Positions 145-37,875 of a stretch of DNA of 42,544 nucleotides are shown one piece after another. The position numbers and the translations under genes are program-made. The stretch is from contig NYZG01000444.1 in the NCBI GenBank assembly GCA_002687025.1, positions 1 through 42,544 on the forward strand, read 5' to 3'. The stretch comes from Candidatus Poribacteria bacterium. GTDB taxonomy: Bacteria; Poribacteria; WGA-4E; GCA-2687025. The notes below the pieces were generated by a model, which was given only the letters and a program-made list of their open reading frames with translations, ran no database searches and was not told the DNA's origin. Position 1 is the first letter of the stretch, and each line of letters starts with the position of its first letter.

Positions 145-2007
145 GTGGCACTCGTCGACGGCGCAGAAGTCCTGCTCAACGCCGCCGCCACACCCAGGGA
201 CGACGTGACGTTCTCGGTCGCGAGCGCCCCGCAGCCCAACATCAGTGTGACGCCGACCGCGCTCGCACTGCCAGACACGCAGGTGGAAGGCTCGAGCTCC
301 GACACCGTCACCATCGCGAACACGGGGACCGCGACGCTGACGGTGAGCGACATCGCCTCGGACAGCGCCGCATTCACGGTTTCCACCTCGCCCGCGCCAC
401 CATTCGACTTGCTCGCACAGGACCCGGACCTCAGTCAGACGGTGACGGTGACGTTCATGCCCGTGGCGGAGGGCGCCCAGGCGGCGAGCATCACGATCAC
501 CCACAACGCGGCGGGCAGTCCCACCGTCATCACCGCGACGGGGACGGGCACGACTGCGACCGGACCCGCGGCGGACGCGGTCACCGTCGTCGATTCCCAG
601 GGATCGGCGGGAGACGATGTTATCGTGCCGATCAGCATCTTCGATGTCGCCACGGCGCCGGAGGTCGTGGCAGGCGGCGATCCGGTCGCGGGCATCGACC
701 TGACCATGACCTATGATGCGGCGTTGCTGACGCCTGTATCAGACGCAACTGGCACGATCGCCGCCGCCCTCGGCTCCATCGTTCCGTTGGAGTGGTCGAT
801 CGAGCAGAACGTCATCACGCCGGGTGAGTTGGAGATCGTCCTCGCGGGCGCGTTCGACAAGCTGCTTGCCGGCGCCGGCACGCTCGTGAACGTGACGTTC
901 GCCGTGGACGCCGGCGCAGTCACGAACACAACGAGCCCCGTCGGTCTGTCGCGCGCACGGTTGAACGACGGCGCCGTCGCCTCGACTCCAGTCGGCGGCA
1001 CGTTTGCCGTCGTCAACTTCATGTATGGCGACGTCACAGGCAACGGGGACTGGGGCGGATTCGACGGTGCGCACGTGCTGGAACACGTTGCTCAGGCGCT
1101 CCTGGCCGGAGACCACACGTTCCCGATCGAACTCGCGGCCCCCGTCTGGGCGCCACTGCCGCTGACGGAGGCAGAAGCCGATTCAGTAGCAGACGTCGAC
1201 CAGAGCGCCGACGTCACGGCGATGGACGCTTCGCTCATACTCCAAGCGGCGGTCGGAATCCTGGCCGATCTGCCCGTGGCTCCACCGGCGTCTCCGGCCA
1301 TCTCGGCGGCGCGTGCGGCCTACGTGATCAATGGCGCGGCGACGTCCGAGCGGCCCGGCGCGCACATCACACTCACCCTCGACGCCTCCACGATGGCCGG
1401 CCTCCGCGCGGGCGAACTCGTCCTGGAGTTCGACGGCGCGCTGTTGAGACCAGTGGACGTCTCGCTGAGACACGGCGCAACCGACGACAACGCGCAGCGT
1501 CCGCTGCTGGTTCAGCGTGAGGGAGACGGGCGTCTCGCCGTAGCGTTCGCCTCGGCGCGGCCCATAGAGGCGTCTGACGCGCTCCTCGAAGTCACGTTCG
1601 AGGCGACGCGCGACATTTCACGCGCGAGGGAGAGCGCGATCCGCGCGTCTCACCTGCGACTCAACCGGTCGCTAGTGGAAACGGACTTCACGTTGCCGTT
1701 CCGCATCGAGCCGTTCCAGACTCGGCTCATGGCGAACTACCCGAACCCGTTCAACCCGGAGACGTGGATTCCGTTCGAACTGGCCGAGGCCGCGGATGTG
1801 ACGGTCCGCATTTACGGCCTCGACGGCGGCCTCATGCGGAAGCTGGAGCTGGGAGCGCGGGCAGTCGGCGAACACGTCGGGCGTGAAGACGCGGCCTACT
1901 GGGATGGCAGGAACACGGACGGCGAGGCGGCCGCCAGCGGAGTATACATCTACGAGCTCACAGCGGGCGACTGCCGCGCGCTGCGCAGGATGGTCGTGAT
2001 GAAGTGA
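145..2007 (+). CDS. Large surface/scaffold protein. Modules: Ig-like (ASH / choice-of-anchor-D-like), cohesin-like, dockerin-like, second cohesin-like, and a FlgD-Ig / T9SS-type C-terminal domain. No signal peptide; possibly 5'-truncated.
   Basis: 620-aa ORF with strong G/C third-position bias. GTG at 145 is the first possible start; the frame is open only back to nt 88 and has no ATG. Dockerin-like paired Ca-loop segments: GDVTGNGDWGGFDGAHVLEH and ADVDQSADVTAMDASLILQAAVG (about nt 1021-1263). Cohesin-like stretches lie on both sides (V.VPISIFDV...GIDLTMTYDAALL; ...ELVLEFDGALLRPV...). C-terminus: NYPNPFNPETWIPFEL...AAYWDGRN...SGVYIYEL. Domain names come from motif recognition, not a search. 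Confidence 0.8.
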   Translation: MALVDGAEVLLNAAATPRDDVTFSVASAPQPNISVTPTALALPDTQVEGSSSDTVTIANTGTATLTVSDIASDSAAFTVSTSPAPPFDLLAQDPDLSQTVTVTFMPVAEGAQAASITITHNAAGSPTVITATGTGTTATGPAADAVTVVDSQGSAGDDVIVPISIFDVATAPEVVAGGDPVAGIDLTMTYDAALLTPVSDATGTIAAALGSIVPLEWSIEQNVITPGELEIVLAGAFDKLLAGAGTLVNVTFAVDAGAVTNTTSPVGLSRARLNDGAVASTPVGGTFAVVNFMYGDVTGNGDWGGFDGAHVLEHVAQALLAGDHTFPIELAAPVWAPLPLTEAEADSVADVDQSADVTAMDASLILQAAVGILADLPVAPPASPAISAARAAYVINGAATSERPGAHITLTLDASTMAGLRAGELVLEFDGALLRPVDVSLRHGATDDNAQRPLLVQREGDGRLAVAFASARPIEASDALLEVTFEATRDISRARESAIRASHLRLNRSLVETDFTLPFRIEPFQTRLMANYPNPFNPETWIPFELAEAADVTVRIYGLDGGLMRKLELGARAVGEHVGREDAAYWDGRNTDGEAAASGVYIYELTAGDCRALRRMVVMK

Positions 2008-32460: not shown

Positions 32461-34257
32461 TCAGACTCGCCCGACTTCCTTGGCGAGCGCCTTCGCTTCC
32501 TCGACGGCGTCGCGGATGAGATCGCAGCCCGCCTGCCAGAAGTCGCGCGAGGAGATGTCGAAGCCCATCCTGCTTACGAGTTCGGCCGGAGCCGCCGACC
32601 CACCAGCGCGAAGCAGGTCGAAATAGCTCGTCACGAACTCCCCGCCAACGCGCCTGTACTGGCCGTAGAGCGACAGCACGAGCAACTCCCCGAACGCGTA
32701 GGCGTAGACGTAGAACGGCACGCGGTACACGTGCGGGATGTAGAGCCACCACGACGCGTGCCCCTCGCCCAGCCTCAGCGAGTCGCCGAACATCTCCTGC
32801 ATCGTCTCCTGCCAGACGGCGGAGTACGCCTCGGCCGTCTGCTCGCCCTCCTCGCGGCGCAGTCGGTGGGCGCGCTGCTCGAATCGGTACATCGCGATCT
32901 GCCGGAACACCGTCGCGAACGTGTCCTCGATCTTCCCGCAGAGCAGCGCCAGTCGTTCGTCCGGGGACTCCAGGGTCCCGCGCAGCTTGTCGAACACGAG
33001 CATCTCGGCAAACGTGCTCGCCGTCTCCGCGAGCGGAAGAACGGGGTGGTAGTTCAGCAGCGACTGCTCCGCCGCCAAGACATCGTGGACGCCGTGGCCA
33101 AGCTCGTGCGCCAACGTCATCACGTCCCGCGGCGTGCCCATGTAGTTCATGAAGACGTACGGGTGCAGGTCCGGCGTGACGCCCGCGCAGTAGGCGCCGC
33201 CCTGCTTGTTGTCCGCCAACGCGGCGTCGATCCACCCACGGGTGAAGAACGGGTCGGCGGCGTCCCTGAGTCGTCGGTCGAAGCCGTCGAAAGAGTCCAA
33301 TACGAGCGTCCTCGCCTCGGCGAACGGCACGTTCGACGTCTCACCCGTGATGGGAGCGTAGCGATCGTAGTCGGTGAGCTCGTCCAGACCGAGCACTCGA
33401 CGCTTCAGGTCGTAGTAGTCCGCGACGATGTCGTAGTTCGCCACGCACGTGTCGACCACGGCCTCGACCACCTCGGGGGCGACTTCGTTGTCGAGATGCC
33501 GCGACGCCTCGGGCGTGTCGAATCCGCGCAGCCGGTCCTTGGTCTGCTTCTCGTGGAGAAGCGTGTTGAAGATGTAGGTGAGGACGTGCGTATCCTCTTG
33601 CAACCCGGCCGTGAGCGATTCCGCCGTCTTGCGGCGCAGCTCGCGGTCGGGGTCGTGGAACTTCGCGAGGAGTACGCTCTGCGTCAGCTCCTCGCCGTCG
33701 AATTCGTACTTGCGGCGTGCGCTCACCTCGTCGAACAGCCGCCCGAAGGCGCGCCCTCCGGTGTTCGCGGTCTCCTCGAGGATCTTCTCCTCGGCCTCGG
33801 TGAGCCGATGCTCCGCCAGGCGGCGCTCGTGCTCGACGTAGTGACGGTACTCGGCGAGGATCGGGTCGCCGATGATTGCGTCGTAAGTGTCCCGCGGGAT
33901 CGCGCCGAGTTCCAGATCGAAGAATATCAGATGGGTAGACGCCGCGGAGCTCGCTTCCCGAGCCCGCTGCATCAGCGCGCCTCTCGCGGCGTCACCCGTG
34001 TCCGTCGAGAAGAGAAGCTGCGCATACGACCCCGGCCGGTACTGCCGCTCCAGCAGCGCCTCGTACTCCCGGAGCGCCGTGAGCAAGACATCGGCCTTCA
34101 GCTCTGATGTCGCGATGCGACCCTTGTATTGCTCCTCGAAGGACCGGGCTCGGTCGCCCATGTCCGCCAAGTCTCGGGTCAGCTCCGGGTCGTCTGCCCC
34201 GGAGTATAGGTCGGACAAGTCCCAGGTAGGTAGCTCGACGGAGTGGGCTTCGCTCAC
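32461..34257 (-). CDS. pepF: Oligoendopeptidase F (peptidase M3B)
   Basis: HEXXH in AHELGHGVHD. N-terminus ...LPTWDLSDLY is typical of the family, and the size (598 aa from GTG 34257) fits. The 60-aa extension to ATG 34437 has poor third-position GC and is rejected. Confidence 0.85.
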   Translation of the reverse strand: MSEAHSVELPTWDLSDLYSGADDPELTRDLADMGDRARSFEEQYKGRIATSELKADVLLTALREYEALLERQYRPGSYAQLLFSTDTGDAARGALMQRAREASSAASTHLIFFDLELGAIPRDTYDAIIGDPILAEYRHYVEHERRLAEHRLTEAEEKILEETANTGGRAFGRLFDEVSARRKYEFDGEELTQSVLLAKFHDPDRELRRKTAESLTAGLQEDTHVLTYIFNTLLHEKQTKDRLRGFDTPEASRHLDNEVAPEVVEAVVDTCVANYDIVADYYDLKRRVLGLDELTDYDRYAPITGETSNVPFAEARTLVLDSFDGFDRRLRDAADPFFTRGWIDAALADNKQGGAYCAGVTPDLHPYVFMNYMGTPRDVMTLAHELGHGVHDVLAAEQSLLNYHPVLPLAETASTFAEMLVFDKLRGTLESPDERLALLCGKIEDTFATVFRQIAMYRFEQRAHRLRREEGEQTAEAYSAVWQETMQEMFGDSLRLGEGHASWWLYIPHVYRVPFYVYAYAFGELLVLSLYGQYRRVGGEFVTSYFDLLRAGGSAAPAELVSRMGFDISSRDFWQAGCDLIRDAVEEAKALAKEVGRV

Positions 34258-34420: not shown

Positions 34421-34609
34421 CGTGGGAGTGCGCTCATGCGCGCTGGAGGTTGTGCGCCGCGCTTCCGGGCCGGATGCGCGGCGATCGTGGCGCTACTCGT
34501 CCGCCAAAGGATTGCTTTTCCCGTACCGCTTCAACGACGGCAGACCGGTTCGCAGGTTACGGATGTGCGTCTTTCGGGCGGAACGCCGGCGCAGGATGGA
34601 GAGAGCTTC

Positions 34610-36133
34610 ATGCGTAGATTCCCGTTACCGGGTCGACCGTGGGTTTGGACGTTGGTTCTGGCCGCCGCTGTCGCCATGTCCGCGGACGTTGCGCGCGCGC
34701 AGGGCAGCGAAACCGAGGCGAACGACACCGCGGCGAGCGCGAACGTGATCCCGACCGATGGCTCCGTATGGTCCAACGCATTGGGAACCGGTACTGATGT
34801 CGACTTCTTCCAGTTCGTCGCGACTGCTGGTGAGACGTACACGATCACGACGAGCAATCTGGGCGTCGATGTCGATACCGGCCTGGAGCTCTTCGATATC
34901 GATCCCGATCCGGGCGGCATCGCGCCGGTAAGTGACAGCTTCGGAACCGGCGGCGCCGGCTCCCAGATCGTCTATACGGCGGTATCGGCCGTGACACACT
35001 ACGTCAGGGTCTATGGGTTCGTGCAAAACGCAGGCGTCTACGACCTCAGCGTTTCGGCGGGTGGCGCGCCGGTCGTGCCCGACCTGAACGTATTCGGCGT
35101 CTCCGTCCTCGAGGGCAACGACGAGTTCACGCCGGTGTTCGCCGCCGTGTCCGTGGAGCTGTCCGAACCGACCACCGTACCCGTGACGTTCGACGTGTCG
35201 CTGACCCCGGTCACAGCCACCGACGGGGACACAGACTACCTCGAATTGGCGACGCCATCTGTCTCAATCCCGGCCGGGGACGCTTCCTACGTCATCAACG
35301 TGACGATCGTCGCGGACGCCATCGCCGAGTCGGTTGAGACGTTCGACGTCAGTCTCCTGAATGTCGACGGCGCGAACCCCGTCACTACGACTGCGACGGT
35401 GACGATCGAAAACGACGACCTCCTGCAAGTCCTGATCGAGTCGGATGCCAACGCGGATGGGTCTCCCGACGCCGGCGGGCCGGTGTACATCGTCAACGAG
35501 TTCAACGACCCGAACTCCACGATCAGCTTCGACGTGCTCGGGGGCGTCGGACCGTCTTACACGCTTAGCATCGTGAGCACGCCATCGCTCGGGAAGCTCA
35601 TCGACCCGAACGGCAGCGTCGAGATGTTCGCGGGCGAGTCGCGCGCCATCAGCGAGGGCGGGCTGCTGTTGGAGTTCGCCGGCACGCCGCAGAGCTCCGG
35701 CAGCTTCGAGCCGTCGGACGCGTTCATCATCACCGTTACCGACGACGGCGATGCGTCGCTCACGTCGGGTTCGGTCATCGTCGAGCTGAGCATAAACGAC
35801 GTGAACCAGTCCGTGGTCGTGGACCGCGAAGGGCTCGCGTTCGTTGCATCCGGGAGCGTGGTGAACCTGCCCATCGTCGACTTGACGGACATCGACTTCG
35901 ACGAGATCCCAGATCCCAGCATCTACGATCCCGACGGCGACAGCCTCGCGTTTGCGAACCCCGTGTCCAGCCTGGGCGCGGAAGTGTGGGTAGCGGGCTC
36001 TTCGTTACGCTACGAGGCCCCGATCTACAACGATGTCGCCAGCGCCGGGGGCCCGCTGACGGACACCGTCACGCTGGAGGTCTCCGACAACAGCGGAGCC
36101 CCAGCGCCCCCGTCACGGCGAGCCTGTCCGTGA
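34610..36133 (+). CDS. Large secreted adhesin-like protein, N-terminal part (signal peptide, PPC pre-peptidase-C-terminal-like domain, Calx-beta-like domain, cadherin/VCBS-like repeats), terminated by a frameshift
   Basis: GGAGAG 6 nt upstream of ATG 34610. MRRFPLPGRPWVWTLVLAAAVAMSADVARAQG. PPC-like ETEANDTAASANVI...DVDFFQFVATAGETYTITT. Calx-beta-like VSVLEGNDEF...VTIENDD. The frame ends at TGA 36131-36133, just after a C5 run. Confidence 0.8.
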   Translation: MRRFPLPGRPWVWTLVLAAAVAMSADVARAQGSETEANDTAASANVIPTDGSVWSNALGTGTDVDFFQFVATAGETYTITTSNLGVDVDTGLELFDIDPDPGGIAPVSDSFGTGGAGSQIVYTAVSAVTHYVRVYGFVQNAGVYDLSVSAGGAPVVPDLNVFGVSVLEGNDEFTPVFAAVSVELSEPTTVPVTFDVSLTPVTATDGDTDYLELATPSVSIPAGDASYVINVTIVADAIAESVETFDVSLLNVDGANPVTTTATVTIENDDLLQVLIESDANADGSPDAGGPVYIVNEFNDPNSTISFDVLGGVGPSYTLSIVSTPSLGKLIDPNGSVEMFAGESRAISEGGLLLEFAGTPQSSGSFEPSDAFIITVTDDGDASLTSGSVIVELSINDVNQSVVVDREGLAFVASGSVVNLPIVDLTDIDFDEIPDPSIYDPDGDSLAFANPVSSLGAEVWVAGSSLRYEAPIYNDVASAGGPLTDTVTLEVSDNSGAPAPPSRRACP

Positions 36134-37875
36134 AGATCCAGCCCGTGGCGGAAGTAGCCTTCAACGTGGTGGCGTCCGACGGGAGCTTCGACCGGGACCT
36201 GCGCCTCGGCGTCGGTCCCGAGGGCTCCATTGAGACCGGCCCGTCGACCACGGGCAGCATCACGGACATGACGGCCGAGCAGTCGCCACCGGAGGCCCCC
36301 GGGACCTCTTTCCGTGCCTGGATCGCCAGCACGGGCGCCCTCCTGCGGGACATCCAGGAGATCAGCTCGTCGCCGGTCACCCGCTCGTGGCCCATTTACG
36401 TGCGCACGGGTACTACCGGCGCCGACTCGATCCTACGCTGGTATGCCCCCGACGTGAACGCGCTCGTAATGCAGCTCGACACCTCCACCGGCGTGCCGCA
36501 CTCGGCGACCATCGCCGACCTGGCCACCGGTGAAACCTGGGAACTCACGGGCGACGTGTGGGGCGAGATTTACCTGGCGGACAACCGGTCGTACAACTTC
36601 GACGTGGTGTTGACGCCGTCCGCGGGGGAGACGTTCGTCGATGGGAATCTGATCGCCGGCTGGAACCTCGTATCGGTCCCGGGCATCGGAGATCTGAGCA
36701 ACCTCGACGCGATGTCGAACTCCGCGTTCGTGTGGAACGGCCAGTATCAGGGCGTCGGGTTCCTGACGCAGGCTGAAGTGCCGGCCGTCACGGCGGGCGT
36801 CTTCATCAACTCCAACGGCGGGGCATACGGCCTCAATGTGGACGTTGACAGCTCGTCCATACGGGATGTCACGGCGTATCTCAACGCGGGATGGAACCTC
36901 ATTGGGGCGCCGTCCAACGTGGATTCGGGCTCCGGCCTTCCGGTCAGCAACGTCACGTCGCAGTTCAACAACCAGGCCGCCGTGTTCGCGTACGACCCGA
37001 GTAGCCGCAGCTACACGTTGGCGAATGAACTCGTCGCGGGCAATGGGTATTGGGTCTACAACGACACCGGCACGCAGGTAGATGTCCAGCTCACGCAGCC
37101 GCGCCACCTCGGCCCGGACGGTTCGTCTCTGTTCCACCCGGCGCAGATGGCGGCCGCGCCCGCGTTGTCGAGCCTCGACTGGAGCCTGCCCGTCACCCTC
37201 GCGGCGGAAGACGGCTCGCTGCGCACCGTGCAACTGGGGCTGAGCTCCGACGCGTCGGTCGGCTACGACCGGCTCGACGTCCCGATGCCTCCGCCGCCGC
37301 CGGTTCGGGCGTACTCGCAGCTCTACGTCGCCGTCGACGACGCGGTCGGGCGACTGACCCGAAGCGTCCAGGCGATGGAGCGCAGCGGGACCGAGTGGGT
37401 GATGAACGCGCGCATAGACGGCTCATCGGGTGTCATCGAGTGGCAGCGGCCGAGCGTGCCGGAGCACTGGCGTCTCACCATGCAAGCGGGCGGCAGGCGC
37501 GTGGACATGGCCGAGAGGCAGTCGTTGGCGCTCACCGGCGGCACGCACGATCTCCGCGTCACGCTGACGTGGATCGCCCCGACGGCCACGCGGCTCATGC
37601 CGAACTACCCGAACCCGTTCAACCCCGAGACGTGGATCCCGTTCGAGCTGACGCAGGCAGCGGATGTGACCGTTCGCGTGTATGGGCAGGACGGCGCCGT
37701 CGTCCGCACGCTGGAGCTCGGCTACCGCGCCGAGGGTTACTACACCGGCATCGGGGACGCGGCGTATTGGGATGGTCGCAACGAATCGGGCGAGCAGGTC
37801 GCCAGCGGCGTGTATCTCTACGAGCTGCAGGCCGGCGAGTACCGCGCGATACGCCGCATGGTGATCCTCAAATAG
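36109..37875 (+). CDS. Same adhesin-like protein, C-terminal part in the -1 frame (ORF open from 35986), ending in the FlgD-Ig / T9SS-type C-terminal domain
   Basis: Coding-quality sequence continues in the other frame from ...PVTASLSVKIQPVAEV. Repeated GWNL[VI] motifs. C-terminal NYPNPFNPETWIPFEL...AAYWDGRN...SGVYLYEL. No independent RBS or signal peptide. Confidence 0.75.
   Translation, partial: PVTASLSVKIQPVAEVAFNVVASDGSFDRDLRLGVGPEGSIETGPSTTGSITDMTAEQSPPEAPGTSFRAWIASTGALLRDIQEISSSPVTRSWPIYVRTGTTGADSILRWYAPDVNALVMQLDTSTGVPHSATIADLATGETWELTGDVWGEIYLADNRSYNFDVVLTPSAGETFVDGNLIAGWNLVSVPGIGDLSNLDAMSNSAFVWNGQYQGVGFLTQAEVPAVTAGVFINSNGGAYGLNVDVDSSSIRDVTAYLNAGWNLIGAPSNVDSGSGLPVSNVTSQFNNQAAVFAYDPSSRSYTLANELVAGNGYWVYNDTGTQVDVQLTQPRHLGPDGSSLFHPAQMAAAPALSSLDWSLPVTLAAEDGSLRTVQLGLSSDASVGYDRLDVPMPPPPPVRAYSQLYVAVDDAVGRLTRSVQAMERSGTEWVMNARIDGSSGVIEWQRPSVPEHWRLTMQAGGRRVDMAERQSLALTGGTHDLRVTLTWIAPTATRLMPNYPNPFNPETWIPFELTQAADVTVRVYGQDGAVVRTLELGYRAEGYYTGIGDAAYWDGRNESGEQVASGVYLYELQAGEYRAIRRMVILK

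What the first reader, a model, noticed from the sequence alone, without database searches (positions are those of the whole stretch)
36095..36135. 1-nt frameshift in a C5 homopolymer splits a ~1090-aa adhesin gene
Seen: the 34610-36133 frame reads ...VSDNSGAPAPPSRRACP* and stops at 36131. The frame one position back reads ...PSAPVTASLSVKIQPVAEV and continues with coding-quality sequence to the sorting-type C-terminal domain at 37875. The two frames overlap at GCG-CCCCC-GTC (C run 36107-36111; a C4 run lies at 36099-36102).

Adding one C would give the continuous sequence ...SGAPAPPVTASLSVK... . The downstream part has no RBS or signal peptide of its own, and both halves keep strong third-position G/C bias.

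Inference, three possibilities:
1. a homopolymer sequencing or assembly error;
2. a very recent pseudogene;
3. slipped-strand on/off switching or ribosomal -1 slippage of a surface protein.

I cannot distinguish these from one sequence.
Basis: partly seen in the sequence, partly recalled or inferred. Interest (0 to 1): 0.6.

Follow-up and report, generated by a model that had tools for sequence, protein, structure and literature searches.

The report
Real frameshift breaks a surface-protein gene
A large secreted surface-protein gene of an uncultured marine Poribacteria bacterium is split by a one-base frameshift that is really in the DNA, since eight other metagenome assemblies carry it; it is most likely an ordinary, recently made pseudogene and not a switch or a sequencing mistake.

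Summary
The frame from 34610 ends at TGA 36131-36133. The -1 frame is open across that stop and runs to 37875, ending in a type-IX-style sorting domain.

Same-genus relatives carry one uninterrupted gene of 1105 or 1212 aa, the closer one in the same gene neighbourhood. Four paralogues are also continuous here. The window has 14 nt where the closest orthologue has 15, within 36095-36108, next to or inside the C4 and C5 runs.

However, exact-protein look-ups found the same 507-aa plus 581-aa split in eight other assemblies. These come from at least two Tara Oceans biosamples, two named runs and several assemblers. The junction DNA is identical in all nine loci, on two haplotypes. No intact near-identical allele was found; the best full-length relative is 71% identical.

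An assembly error is therefore unlikely. A switch or programmed slippage is also unlikely:
- C5 is short, and there are about 5,500 C5/G5 runs in this genome.
- Orthologues have no run at the site.
- There is no slippery heptamer and no stimulatory RNA fold.

The break falls inside a predicted beta-sandwich domain and separates the signal peptide from the sorting domain.

Verdict: a recent pseudogene, apparently fixed in the assemblies found. Low interest.

The parts
34610..36133 (+). Upstream fragment of the broken gene (507 aa plus stop). It carries a signal-peptide-like N-terminus, a PPC domain, a Calx-beta-like domain and further beta-rich modules. It ends in 6 out-of-frame residues (SRRACP) and TGA.
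   Evidence: Gene callers in eight public assemblies call exactly this 507-aa product.
34610..34699 (+). Predicted Sec signal peptide (MRRFPLPGRPWVWTLVLAAAVAMSADVARA|Q).
   Evidence: Read from the translation: basic n-region, hydrophobic core and an A-x-A site. No predictor was run.
34796..35017 (+). PPC (bacterial pre-peptidase C-terminal) domain, residues 63-136.
   Evidence: Pfam PF04151, 33.9-35.1 bits against a cut-off of 25.9.
35144..35419 (+). Calx-beta-like domain, residues 179-270.
   Evidence: Pfam PF03160, 23.8-24.9 bits, just below the cut-off of 27. The homologues P0003-P0007 carry PF03160.
36095..36111 (+). Zone of the frameshift. Between the conserved Ser codon (36092-36094) and the conserved CCC GTC (Pro-Val, 36109-36114) the window has 14 nt where the closest orthologue has 15. 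The zone contains the C4 run (36099-36102) and the C5 run (36107-36111).
   Evidence: Codon-level comparison with G001 and G002. The sequence is identical in nine loci from other assemblies.
36131..36133 (+). Premature TGA of frame A. It overlaps GTG 36130-36132 of frame B (GTGA).
36112..37875 (+). Downstream remainder of the gene in the -1 frame (587 codons plus stop). Gene callers start it at GTG 36130 (581 aa). It has no signal peptide of its own.
   Evidence: It is 78% identical to the G001 orthologue over this part.
37642..37872 (+). C-terminal sorting-type domain (FlgD_ig / T9SS type A CTD-like; NYPNPFNPET motif just upstream).
   Evidence: Pfam PF13860, 38.8 bits against a cut-off of 27. 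TIGR04183, 20.6 bits, below its cut-off of 23.
36296..36300 (+). Second C5 run inside the downstream part. One other assembly (TARA_SAMEA2620113 scaffold_7732) has C4 here, 55 nt from its contig end.

Best explanation
This is a genuine, evolutionarily recent frameshift pseudogene. The ancestral gene encoded a ~1088-aa secreted surface protein of a marine Candidatus Poribacteria bacterium, built as signal peptide, PPC, Calx-beta-like domain, beta-sandwich modules, a ~400-aa family module, and a type-IX-style C-terminal sorting domain.

A net loss of one base occurred in a 17-nt stretch containing a C4 and a C5 run. The most probable cause is ordinary replication slippage at a short homopolymer (inferred). 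The loss moved the reading frame by -1.

Translation now ends 6 codons later. The product is a 507-aa fragment that has the signal peptide but lacks both the last beta-strand of one domain and the sorting domain. The remaining 587 codons hold the sorting domain but have no export signal. Neither piece can follow the normal route of Sec export followed by recognition of the C-terminal domain at the outer membrane (inferred from established knowledge of T9SS cargo).

The broken allele is the only one found in the public assemblies that contain this population. The genome keeps many paralogues, so the loss is probably tolerated.
For: Shown:
1. The break is at the stated place, and both halves have coding composition.
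2. The syntenic G001 orthologue, the G002 homologue and four paralogues are continuous through the site. The linker has the same length in all three species once the window's frames are joined.
3. The same 507-aa plus 581-aa split occurs in ERZ908359 (run ERR868353), ERZ17293991, ERZ28654154 (TARA_SAMEA2620043), ERZ28653842 (TARA_SAMEA2620113), ERZ17294083, ERZ976232, the Logan assembly of ERR868468, and ERZ27286803.
4. The junction DNA is identical in all nine loci, on two haplotypes that differ at 36074, 30 nt upstream.
5. No intact allele closer than 71% identity was found among 5.8 billion protein clusters.
6. The downstream half is not more diverged from the orthologue than the upstream half (78% against 64%), so the event is recent.
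7. Variants among the assemblies are 4 synonymous and 1 non-synonymous in the neighbouring M3 peptidase gene. In the broken gene they are 2 non-synonymous, one of them W to G at a Trp kept in both orthologues, plus one further 1-nt indel. This fits relaxed constraint, but the numbers are tiny.
8. An AlphaFold model of the orthologous segment puts the site in the hairpin loop between the last two strands of a beta-sandwich. Local pLDDT is about 80; overall it is 51.
9. G000 has at least 45 ORFs with this C-terminal domain and several paralogues sharing the 400-500-aa C-terminal module.
10. Broken genes are not rare in this genome. Three of 243 orthologues checked against 400 kb of G001 show verified frame breaks.
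Against:
- The assemblies all come from one marine sampling programme. It is not known how the runs and unnamed ENA assemblies map onto the two named biosamples.
- Both ORFs are still open, and a GTGA stop/start overlap exists, so expression of two separate polypeptides is possible.
- The polymorphism evidence for relaxed selection is not significant on its own.
- Loss of function is inferred, not measured.
Confidence: 0.78

Rival explanations
1. Functional gene fission. The two ORFs are both expressed, the second by termination-reinitiation at the GTGA overlap, and both are retained as separate proteins.
For: - The split is the only allele seen in nine assemblies and on two haplotypes.
- Both ORFs are intact with coding GC3.
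- GTG 36130 overlaps TGA 36131.
Against: - The GTG is simply the conserved Val codon of the orthologues.
- Only a weak SD-like GGCGAG lies upstream of it.
- The downstream product would carry a sorting domain but no signal peptide, and the upstream product a signal peptide but no sorting domain.
- The cut lies inside a predicted beta-sandwich, before its last strand.
- All relatives keep one gene.
- A W to G change at a conserved Trp and a second indel segregate in the downstream part.
- The assemblies are 99.9% or more identical to the window over the 2.5-7.7 kb compared, so seeing only one allele says little about selection.
Confidence: 0.08
2. Reversible ON/OFF switching by slipped-strand mispairing at the C run, or a low level of -1 ribosomal or transcriptional slippage that still yields some full-length protein.
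For: - The break coincides with C4 and C5 runs.
- Any -1 shift between 35986 and 36131 would restore the long frame.
- The first out-of-frame codon after CCC CCG is a rare TCA, at 2.7 per 1000 codons, and Pro-Pro can stall ribosomes (general knowledge).
- One assembly shows a length variant at another C5 run 190 nt downstream.
Against: - Known contingency loci use homopolymers of about 7-8 nt or more (general knowledge). This one is C5, one of 5,503 C5/G5 runs in the genome.
- Orthologues have ACG CCC GTT and GAC CCC GTC at the site, so no tract is conserved.
- Nine of nine loci have the same length, and no ON allele is in the protein collection.
- There is no X XXY YYZ heptamer in frame A, by reading the sequence.
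- The 100 nt downstream fold no better than shuffles (z = +0.83), and there is no Rfam match above chance.
- The rare TCA is expected in any out-of-frame reading.
- The second variant sits 55 nt from a contig end.
Confidence: 0.05
3. A sequencing or assembly error, with the real gene intact.
For: - The genome is a fragmented, low-coverage metagenome bin with 457 contigs, N50 of 12 kb and 79% completeness. SPAdes contigs of the same population report coverage of about 7.
- Homopolymers are the classic place for indel errors.
Against: - The identical junction appears in eight other assemblies made with MEGAHIT-style, SPAdes-style, TARA_*_METAG-scaffold and Logan pipelines, from at least two biosamples and two named runs.
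- It sits on two haplotypes that differ 30 nt away.
- Of the three other verified frame breaks in this genome, only one lies at a run of 5 or more, so there is no sign of a homopolymer-specific error mode.
- Majority-wrong indels at a run of 5-6 are not expected from short-read data (general knowledge).
Confidence: 0.04

Closest known systems
Frameshift pseudogenes arising by single-base indels at short homopolymers in bacterial genomes
   Same: - One-base net loss in or next to C4/C5 runs.
- Orthologues are intact and collinear.
- Both halves are still recognisable, with coding composition.
- The gene belongs to a multi-copy surface-protein family.
   Different: Nothing essential. The only particular point is that the broken allele is the sole one seen across several ocean metagenome assemblies of an uncultured Poribacteria population.
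Phase-variable contingency loci with poly-G/C tracts (e.g. Neisseria, Haemophilus and Campylobacter surface-protein and modification genes)
   Same: A surface-protein gene interrupted at a C homopolymer, where a one-base length change toggles the frame.
   Different: - The tract is only 5 nt.
- It is not conserved in orthologues.
- It shows no length variation among nine loci.
- It lies mid-gene inside a domain, not near the 5' end.
Programmed -1 ribosomal frameshifting (dnaX, IS3-family transposases)
   Same: The downstream frame is -1 and overlaps the upstream frame, so a -1 slip would give a fusion product.
   Different: - No X XXY YYZ slippery heptamer.
- No stimulatory downstream structure or internal SD.
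- The arrangement is absent from all relatives, which encode the fusion directly.
Type IX secretion system cargo proteins with a type A C-terminal domain (e.g. Porphyromonas gingivalis gingipains, Flavobacterium johnsoniae SprB/RemA)
   Same: An N-terminal signal peptide, a large multi-domain beta-rich passenger, and a ~80-aa C-terminal Ig-like sorting domain (FlgD_ig / Por_Secre_tail-like) shared by dozens of proteins in the genome.
   Different: - The organism is a Poribacteria bacterium.
- The TIGR04183 score is below its cut-off.
- PorU-like and SprA-like proteins match only below the curated cut-offs.
- The gene here is broken, so signal peptide and sorting domain are on different ORFs.

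Membership tests
Frameshift pseudogene | Orthologues encode one continuous protein collinear with both fragments | tested here: met
   G001 (1105 aa, syntenic) and G002 (1212 aa) are single ORFs. Four paralogues are continuous at the site.
Frameshift pseudogene | The frame break is present in the organism's DNA and is not an artefact | tested here: met
   The junction is identical in nine loci from eight other assemblies, covering at least two biosamples, two named runs and two haplotypes. Read-level confirmation was not possible.
Frameshift pseudogene | No functional full-length product is made | not testable with these tools
   This needs transcript or protein data. The only indirect evidence is that the cut lies inside a predicted domain and separates the signal peptide from the sorting domain.
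Phase-variable simple-sequence contingency locus | Long homopolymer or repeat tract (about 7-8 nt or more for mononucleotide runs) | tested here: not met
   C5 and C4 only. There are 5,503 C5/G5 runs and 572 C6/G6 runs genome-wide.
Phase-variable simple-sequence contingency locus | Tract length varies among cells, isolates or samples | tested here: not met
   All nine loci have the same length at 36099-36111. Within-sample read heterogeneity is untested.
Phase-variable simple-sequence contingency locus | Tract conserved at the same place in orthologues | tested here: not met
   Orthologues read ACG CCC GTT and GAC CCC GTC.
Programmed -1 ribosomal frameshift | Slippery heptamer X XXY YYZ in the zero frame | tested here: not met
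   Frame A reads GGA GCC CCA GCG CCC CCG TCA. No heptamer allows both tRNAs to re-pair.
Programmed -1 ribosomal frameshift | Downstream stimulatory RNA structure | tested here: not met
   For 36113-36212 the MFE is -37.4 against a shuffle mean of -40.3 (z = +0.83). There is no Rfam match; the best is E = 0.13 for an unrelated riboswitch.
Programmed -1 ribosomal frameshift | The two-frame arrangement is conserved in relatives | tested here: not met
   All relatives are single-frame.
T9SS type A cargo protein (ancestral intact gene) | C-terminal sorting domain | tested here: inconclusive
   PF13860 FlgD_ig scores 38.8 bits, above its cut-off of 27. TIGR04183 scores 20.6 (cut-off 23) and PF18962 scores 16.2 (cut-off 27).
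T9SS type A cargo protein (ancestral intact gene) | N-terminal Sec signal peptide | not tested
   Seen by eye in the translation. No predictor is available.
T9SS type A cargo protein (ancestral intact gene) | T9SS machinery encoded in the genome | tested here: inconclusive
   PorU-like match of 229 bits in G000 (cut-off 420). SprA matches of 31-76 bits (cut-off 200). PorV and the PorK/L/M/N proteins were not searched.

The most novel reading that the evidence does not exclude
The C4/C5 runs act as a low-rate reversible switch, or allow a few percent of -1 slippage at CCC-CCG before a rare TCA codon. Under this reading the Poribacteria population keeps this surface protein mostly OFF but recoverable. 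The second C-run length variant seen in one assembly would then be part of the same behaviour.
Probability: 0.04. Interest if true: 0.4.

Novelty: new member of a known kind. Interest (0 to 1): 0.1.

Why it matters
It matters little beyond annotation. The two adjacent 'hypothetical proteins' in the public records (565 and 535 aa in the NCBI record; 507 and 581 aa in the ENA and Logan gene calls) are better described as one disrupted gene for a T9SS-style surface protein.

The case also shows that exact-protein look-ups across independent public assemblies can stand in for read pileups when separating real frameshifts from assembly errors in metagenome bins.

For Poribacteria biology, it adds one example of turnover in a very large family of surface proteins that carry the sorting domain.

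Tried and rejected
- **Metagenome contig scans.** Two exact-pattern scans of JGI metagenome contigs, with a variable gap across the C runs, found nothing. This population seems absent from that collection.
- **Search for an intact allele.** A search with the read-through protein found nothing closer than 71% identity.
- **Genome-wide frameshift control.** I compared 400 kb of G001 with G000 by tblastn. The raw list of 18 pairs was dominated by artefacts of stop-to-stop ORF extensions, and the reverse direction gave similar counts. After filtering on GC3 and reading the junctions, three breaks in G000 were verified and one was rejected as an alternative-frame artefact. I did not check whether those three are real in other assemblies.
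- **RNA elements.** The downstream fold is no better than shuffles. The only Rfam match is a chance-level c-di-GMP-II hit at E = 0.13.
- **Function of the passenger.** PDB sequence search gave only FlgD-like matches to the C-terminal domain. Pfam at E up to 1 added nothing reliable. 'Adhesin' therefore stays unproven.
- **Structure.** The structure model is confident only for residues ~50-165 of the segment. Because the overall confidence was low, I did not run a fold search.
- **Literature.** A search on Pelagiporibacteria gave nothing bearing on this gene.
Full report
**Observation**

The window is a whole 42,544-bp contig (C444) of a fragmented metagenome-assembled genome: 457 contigs, N50 12 kb, 67% GC, 79% complete.

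Frame A starts at ATG 34610 with a signal-peptide-like MRRFPLPGRPWVWTLVLAAAVAMSADVARAQ. It reads ...TLEVSDNSGAPAPPSRRACP and stops at TGA 36131-36133. Frame B lies one base back. It is open from 35986, reads ...SAPVTASLSVKIQPVAEV, and continues to 37875.

Third-position GC is 0.84 upstream in frame A and 0.88 downstream in frame B. Frame A has 19 stops after the junction.

Public gene calls therefore start a 581-aa ORF there.

**What the gene is**

Pfam and NCBIfam results:
- PPC domain, residues 63-136.
- Calx-beta-like domain, residues 179-270, just under the cut-off.
- A C-terminal FlgD_ig domain above its cut-off.
- Sub-threshold Por_Secre_tail / TIGR04183 matches, with the NYPNPFNPET motif just upstream.

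PDB sequence search recognises only the FlgD-like tail.

The nearest homologues and genomes are named Candidatus Poribacteria. The tail domain recurs in KSB1, Calditrichia, Cloacimonadota, Latescibacteria, Bacteroidota and Fibrobacterota records. This fits a type-IX-style sorting domain.

G000 has at least 45 ORFs with this tail. It also has a PorU-like protein (229 bits, below the curated 420) and only weak SprA-like matches. Membership in a canonical T9SS is therefore plausible but not established. 'Adhesin' is a guess.

**Relatives**

A six-frame search of 41 related genomes with the read-through protein found the following:
- One ORF of 1105 aa in G001, 73% identical over residues 155-1088.
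- One ORF of 1212 aa in G002, 63% identical.

Neither has an internal stop.

The G001 gene is the positional orthologue. The PepF-like M3 peptidase gene lies immediately upstream on the opposite strand and is 86% identical.

At codon level the orthologues read AGT GGG GTG GCC GGG ACG CCC GTT ACG GCG (G001) and AGC TGG CTC GGG TCT GAC CCC GTC AGC GCG (G002). The window has AGC, then 14 nt (GGAGCCCCAGCGCC), then CCC GTC ACG GCG.

The window therefore has one base fewer than the 15 nt of its relatives. The loss lies somewhere in 36095-36111, and the linker length is otherwise conserved. The orthologues have no C run longer than 3-4 at the site.

Four further paralogues in G001 and G002 are also continuous here. 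Six full-length database homologues of 1065-1292 aa, 59-71% identical, match across this region.

**Error or real?**

Exact-sequence look-ups gave an equivalent test.

The 507-aa upstream product, or its L489V variant, and the 581-aa downstream product are called side by side with the same 4-nt overlap on contigs of eight other assemblies:
- ERZ908359 (run ERR868353, k127 contig, 43 kb)
- ERZ17293991 (NODE contig, 41 kb, coverage about 7)
- ERZ28654154 (TARA_SAMEA2620043)
- ERZ28653842 (TARA_SAMEA2620113)
- ERZ17294083
- ERZ976232 (run ERR868468)
- the Logan assembly of ERR868468
- ERZ27286803

All nine loci have exactly the window's sequence from 36055 to 36144, apart from a C/G polymorphism at 36074 that defines two haplotypes. 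They differ from the window at a few other positions, so they are not copies of one contig.

No intact allele closer than 71% identity exists among proteins of 600-1900 aa in the 5.8-billion-cluster collection.

Several assemblers, at least two biosamples, two named runs and two haplotypes all agree. An assembler artefact is therefore very unlikely, and a majority-wrong short-read indel at a run of 5-6 is not expected.

Two scans of JGI metagenome contigs found nothing.

**Background rate of broken genes**

I compared 377 ORFs from 400 kb of G001 with G000, of which 243 have a best match of at least 60% identity. After filtering and reading the junctions, three orthologues showed frame breaks in G000: C34 near 7681, C160 near 2983 and C153 near 3760. 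Only one of these is at a run of 5.

Broken genes thus occur at roughly 1% in this bin, and they show no homopolymer-specific error signature. The reverse comparison gave similar raw numbers for G001. This finding is one of probably dozens of such breaks in the genome.

**Switch or recoding?**

- C5 is far shorter than the tracts of known contingency loci. It is one of 5,503 C5/G5 runs in the genome.
- The tract is not conserved in orthologues and shows no length variation in nine loci.
- Frame A (GCC CCA GCG CCC CCG TCA) contains no X XXY YYZ heptamer.
- The 100 nt downstream fold no better than shuffles (z = +0.83), and Rfam finds nothing.
- The rare TCA codon after CCC CCG (2.7 per 1000 codons) is what any out-of-frame reading produces.

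These readings are not excluded at the level of rare events, but nothing supports them.

**Consequence of the break**

An AlphaFold model of the orthologous segment was built from a 6-sequence alignment. Overall pLDDT is 51, but it is 70-88 over residues ~50-165. The model shows a beta-sandwich whose last two strands are LTDTVTVDVSD and VTADLSVKIQ. The frameshift zone is the loop between them.

The 507-aa fragment therefore loses the last strand of a domain and the whole C-terminal sorting domain. The downstream ORF has the sorting domain but no signal peptide. Under the established two-step route of T9SS cargo, neither piece should reach the surface (inference).

Variants among the assemblies fit relaxed constraint, but they are few:
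- The neighbouring peptidase gene has 4 synonymous changes and 1 non-synonymous change.
- The broken gene has 2 non-synonymous changes (L489V, and W to G at a Trp conserved in both orthologues).
- One assembly has a further one-base-shorter C run at 36296-36300, close to a contig end.

The downstream half is not more diverged from the orthologue than the upstream half (78% against 64%). The break is therefore recent relative to the split between species.

**Verdict**

This is a real, recent frameshift pseudogene of a T9SS-style surface-protein gene, and the only allele found in the available assemblies of this population (about 0.78). The rivals are:
- functional fission, about 0.08
- switching or slippage, about 0.05
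- sequencing or assembly error, about 0.04

It is an ordinary phenomenon and of low interest. An earlier follow-up on this same window had independently placed the genome in Poribacteria and pointed to type-IX-style sorting. My family searches are compatible with that but remain below the curated cut-offs.

Noticed in passing
window 36296-36300 (L035 ~4187): TARA_SAMEA2620113 scaffold_7732 has C4 where the window and seven other loci have C5. This would be a second frameshift in the downstream part. It lies 55 nt from that contig's end, so it may be an end artefact or a segregating second lesion.
   Followed up: partly
G000 C34 ~7681; C160 ~2983; C153 ~3760: Three other genes of this genome are frame-broken relative to intact G001 orthologues: a beta-lactamase-like gene and two others. 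Only the C153 case sits at a 5-nt G/C run. I did not check whether they are real in other assemblies.
   Followed up: partly
window 34610-35150 vs L001 979-1500 and L003 (minus strand): The N-terminal module differs between orthologues. The window has a PPC domain. G001 has a Calx-beta-like module in its place. G002 has PPC plus an extra Calx-beta-like module (1212 aa). This points to domain shuffling at the N-terminus of the family.
   Followed up: no
window 33256-33278 and 36350-36412: Several independent low-coverage assemblies of the 36074-G haplotype (L035-L038) break at nearly the same places on both sides. This suggests strain-level variation or coverage drops there.
   Followed up: no
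window 37633: The ERZ17293991 contig carries T to G, changing TGG (Trp) to GGG (Gly). The Trp is conserved in both orthologues (LTWIAP / LSWVAP) and lies just before the sorting domain.
   Followed up: partly
G000 C454:14089-18150 (minus strand): A PorU-like (C25 peptidase / T9SS sortase-like) match of 229 + 75 bits lies in a 1707-aa open frame. At least 45 ORFs with the FlgD_ig-type tail are spread over the genome, including another at window 1684-2004.
   Followed up: partly
window 34436-36133 and 36130-37875: Cluster members of the NCBI record's contig length are 565 aa (start at ATG 34436, with an Arg-rich extension) and 535 aa, so that record appears to annotate two separate proteins. The ENA and Logan gene calls use 507 aa and 581 aa. 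None marks a pseudogene.
   Followed up: partly
window 36173-36250: Weak c-di-GMP-II-GAG riboswitch match (21.8 bits against a gathering score of 40, E = 0.13), inside coding sequence. Judged to be chance.
   Followed up: yes
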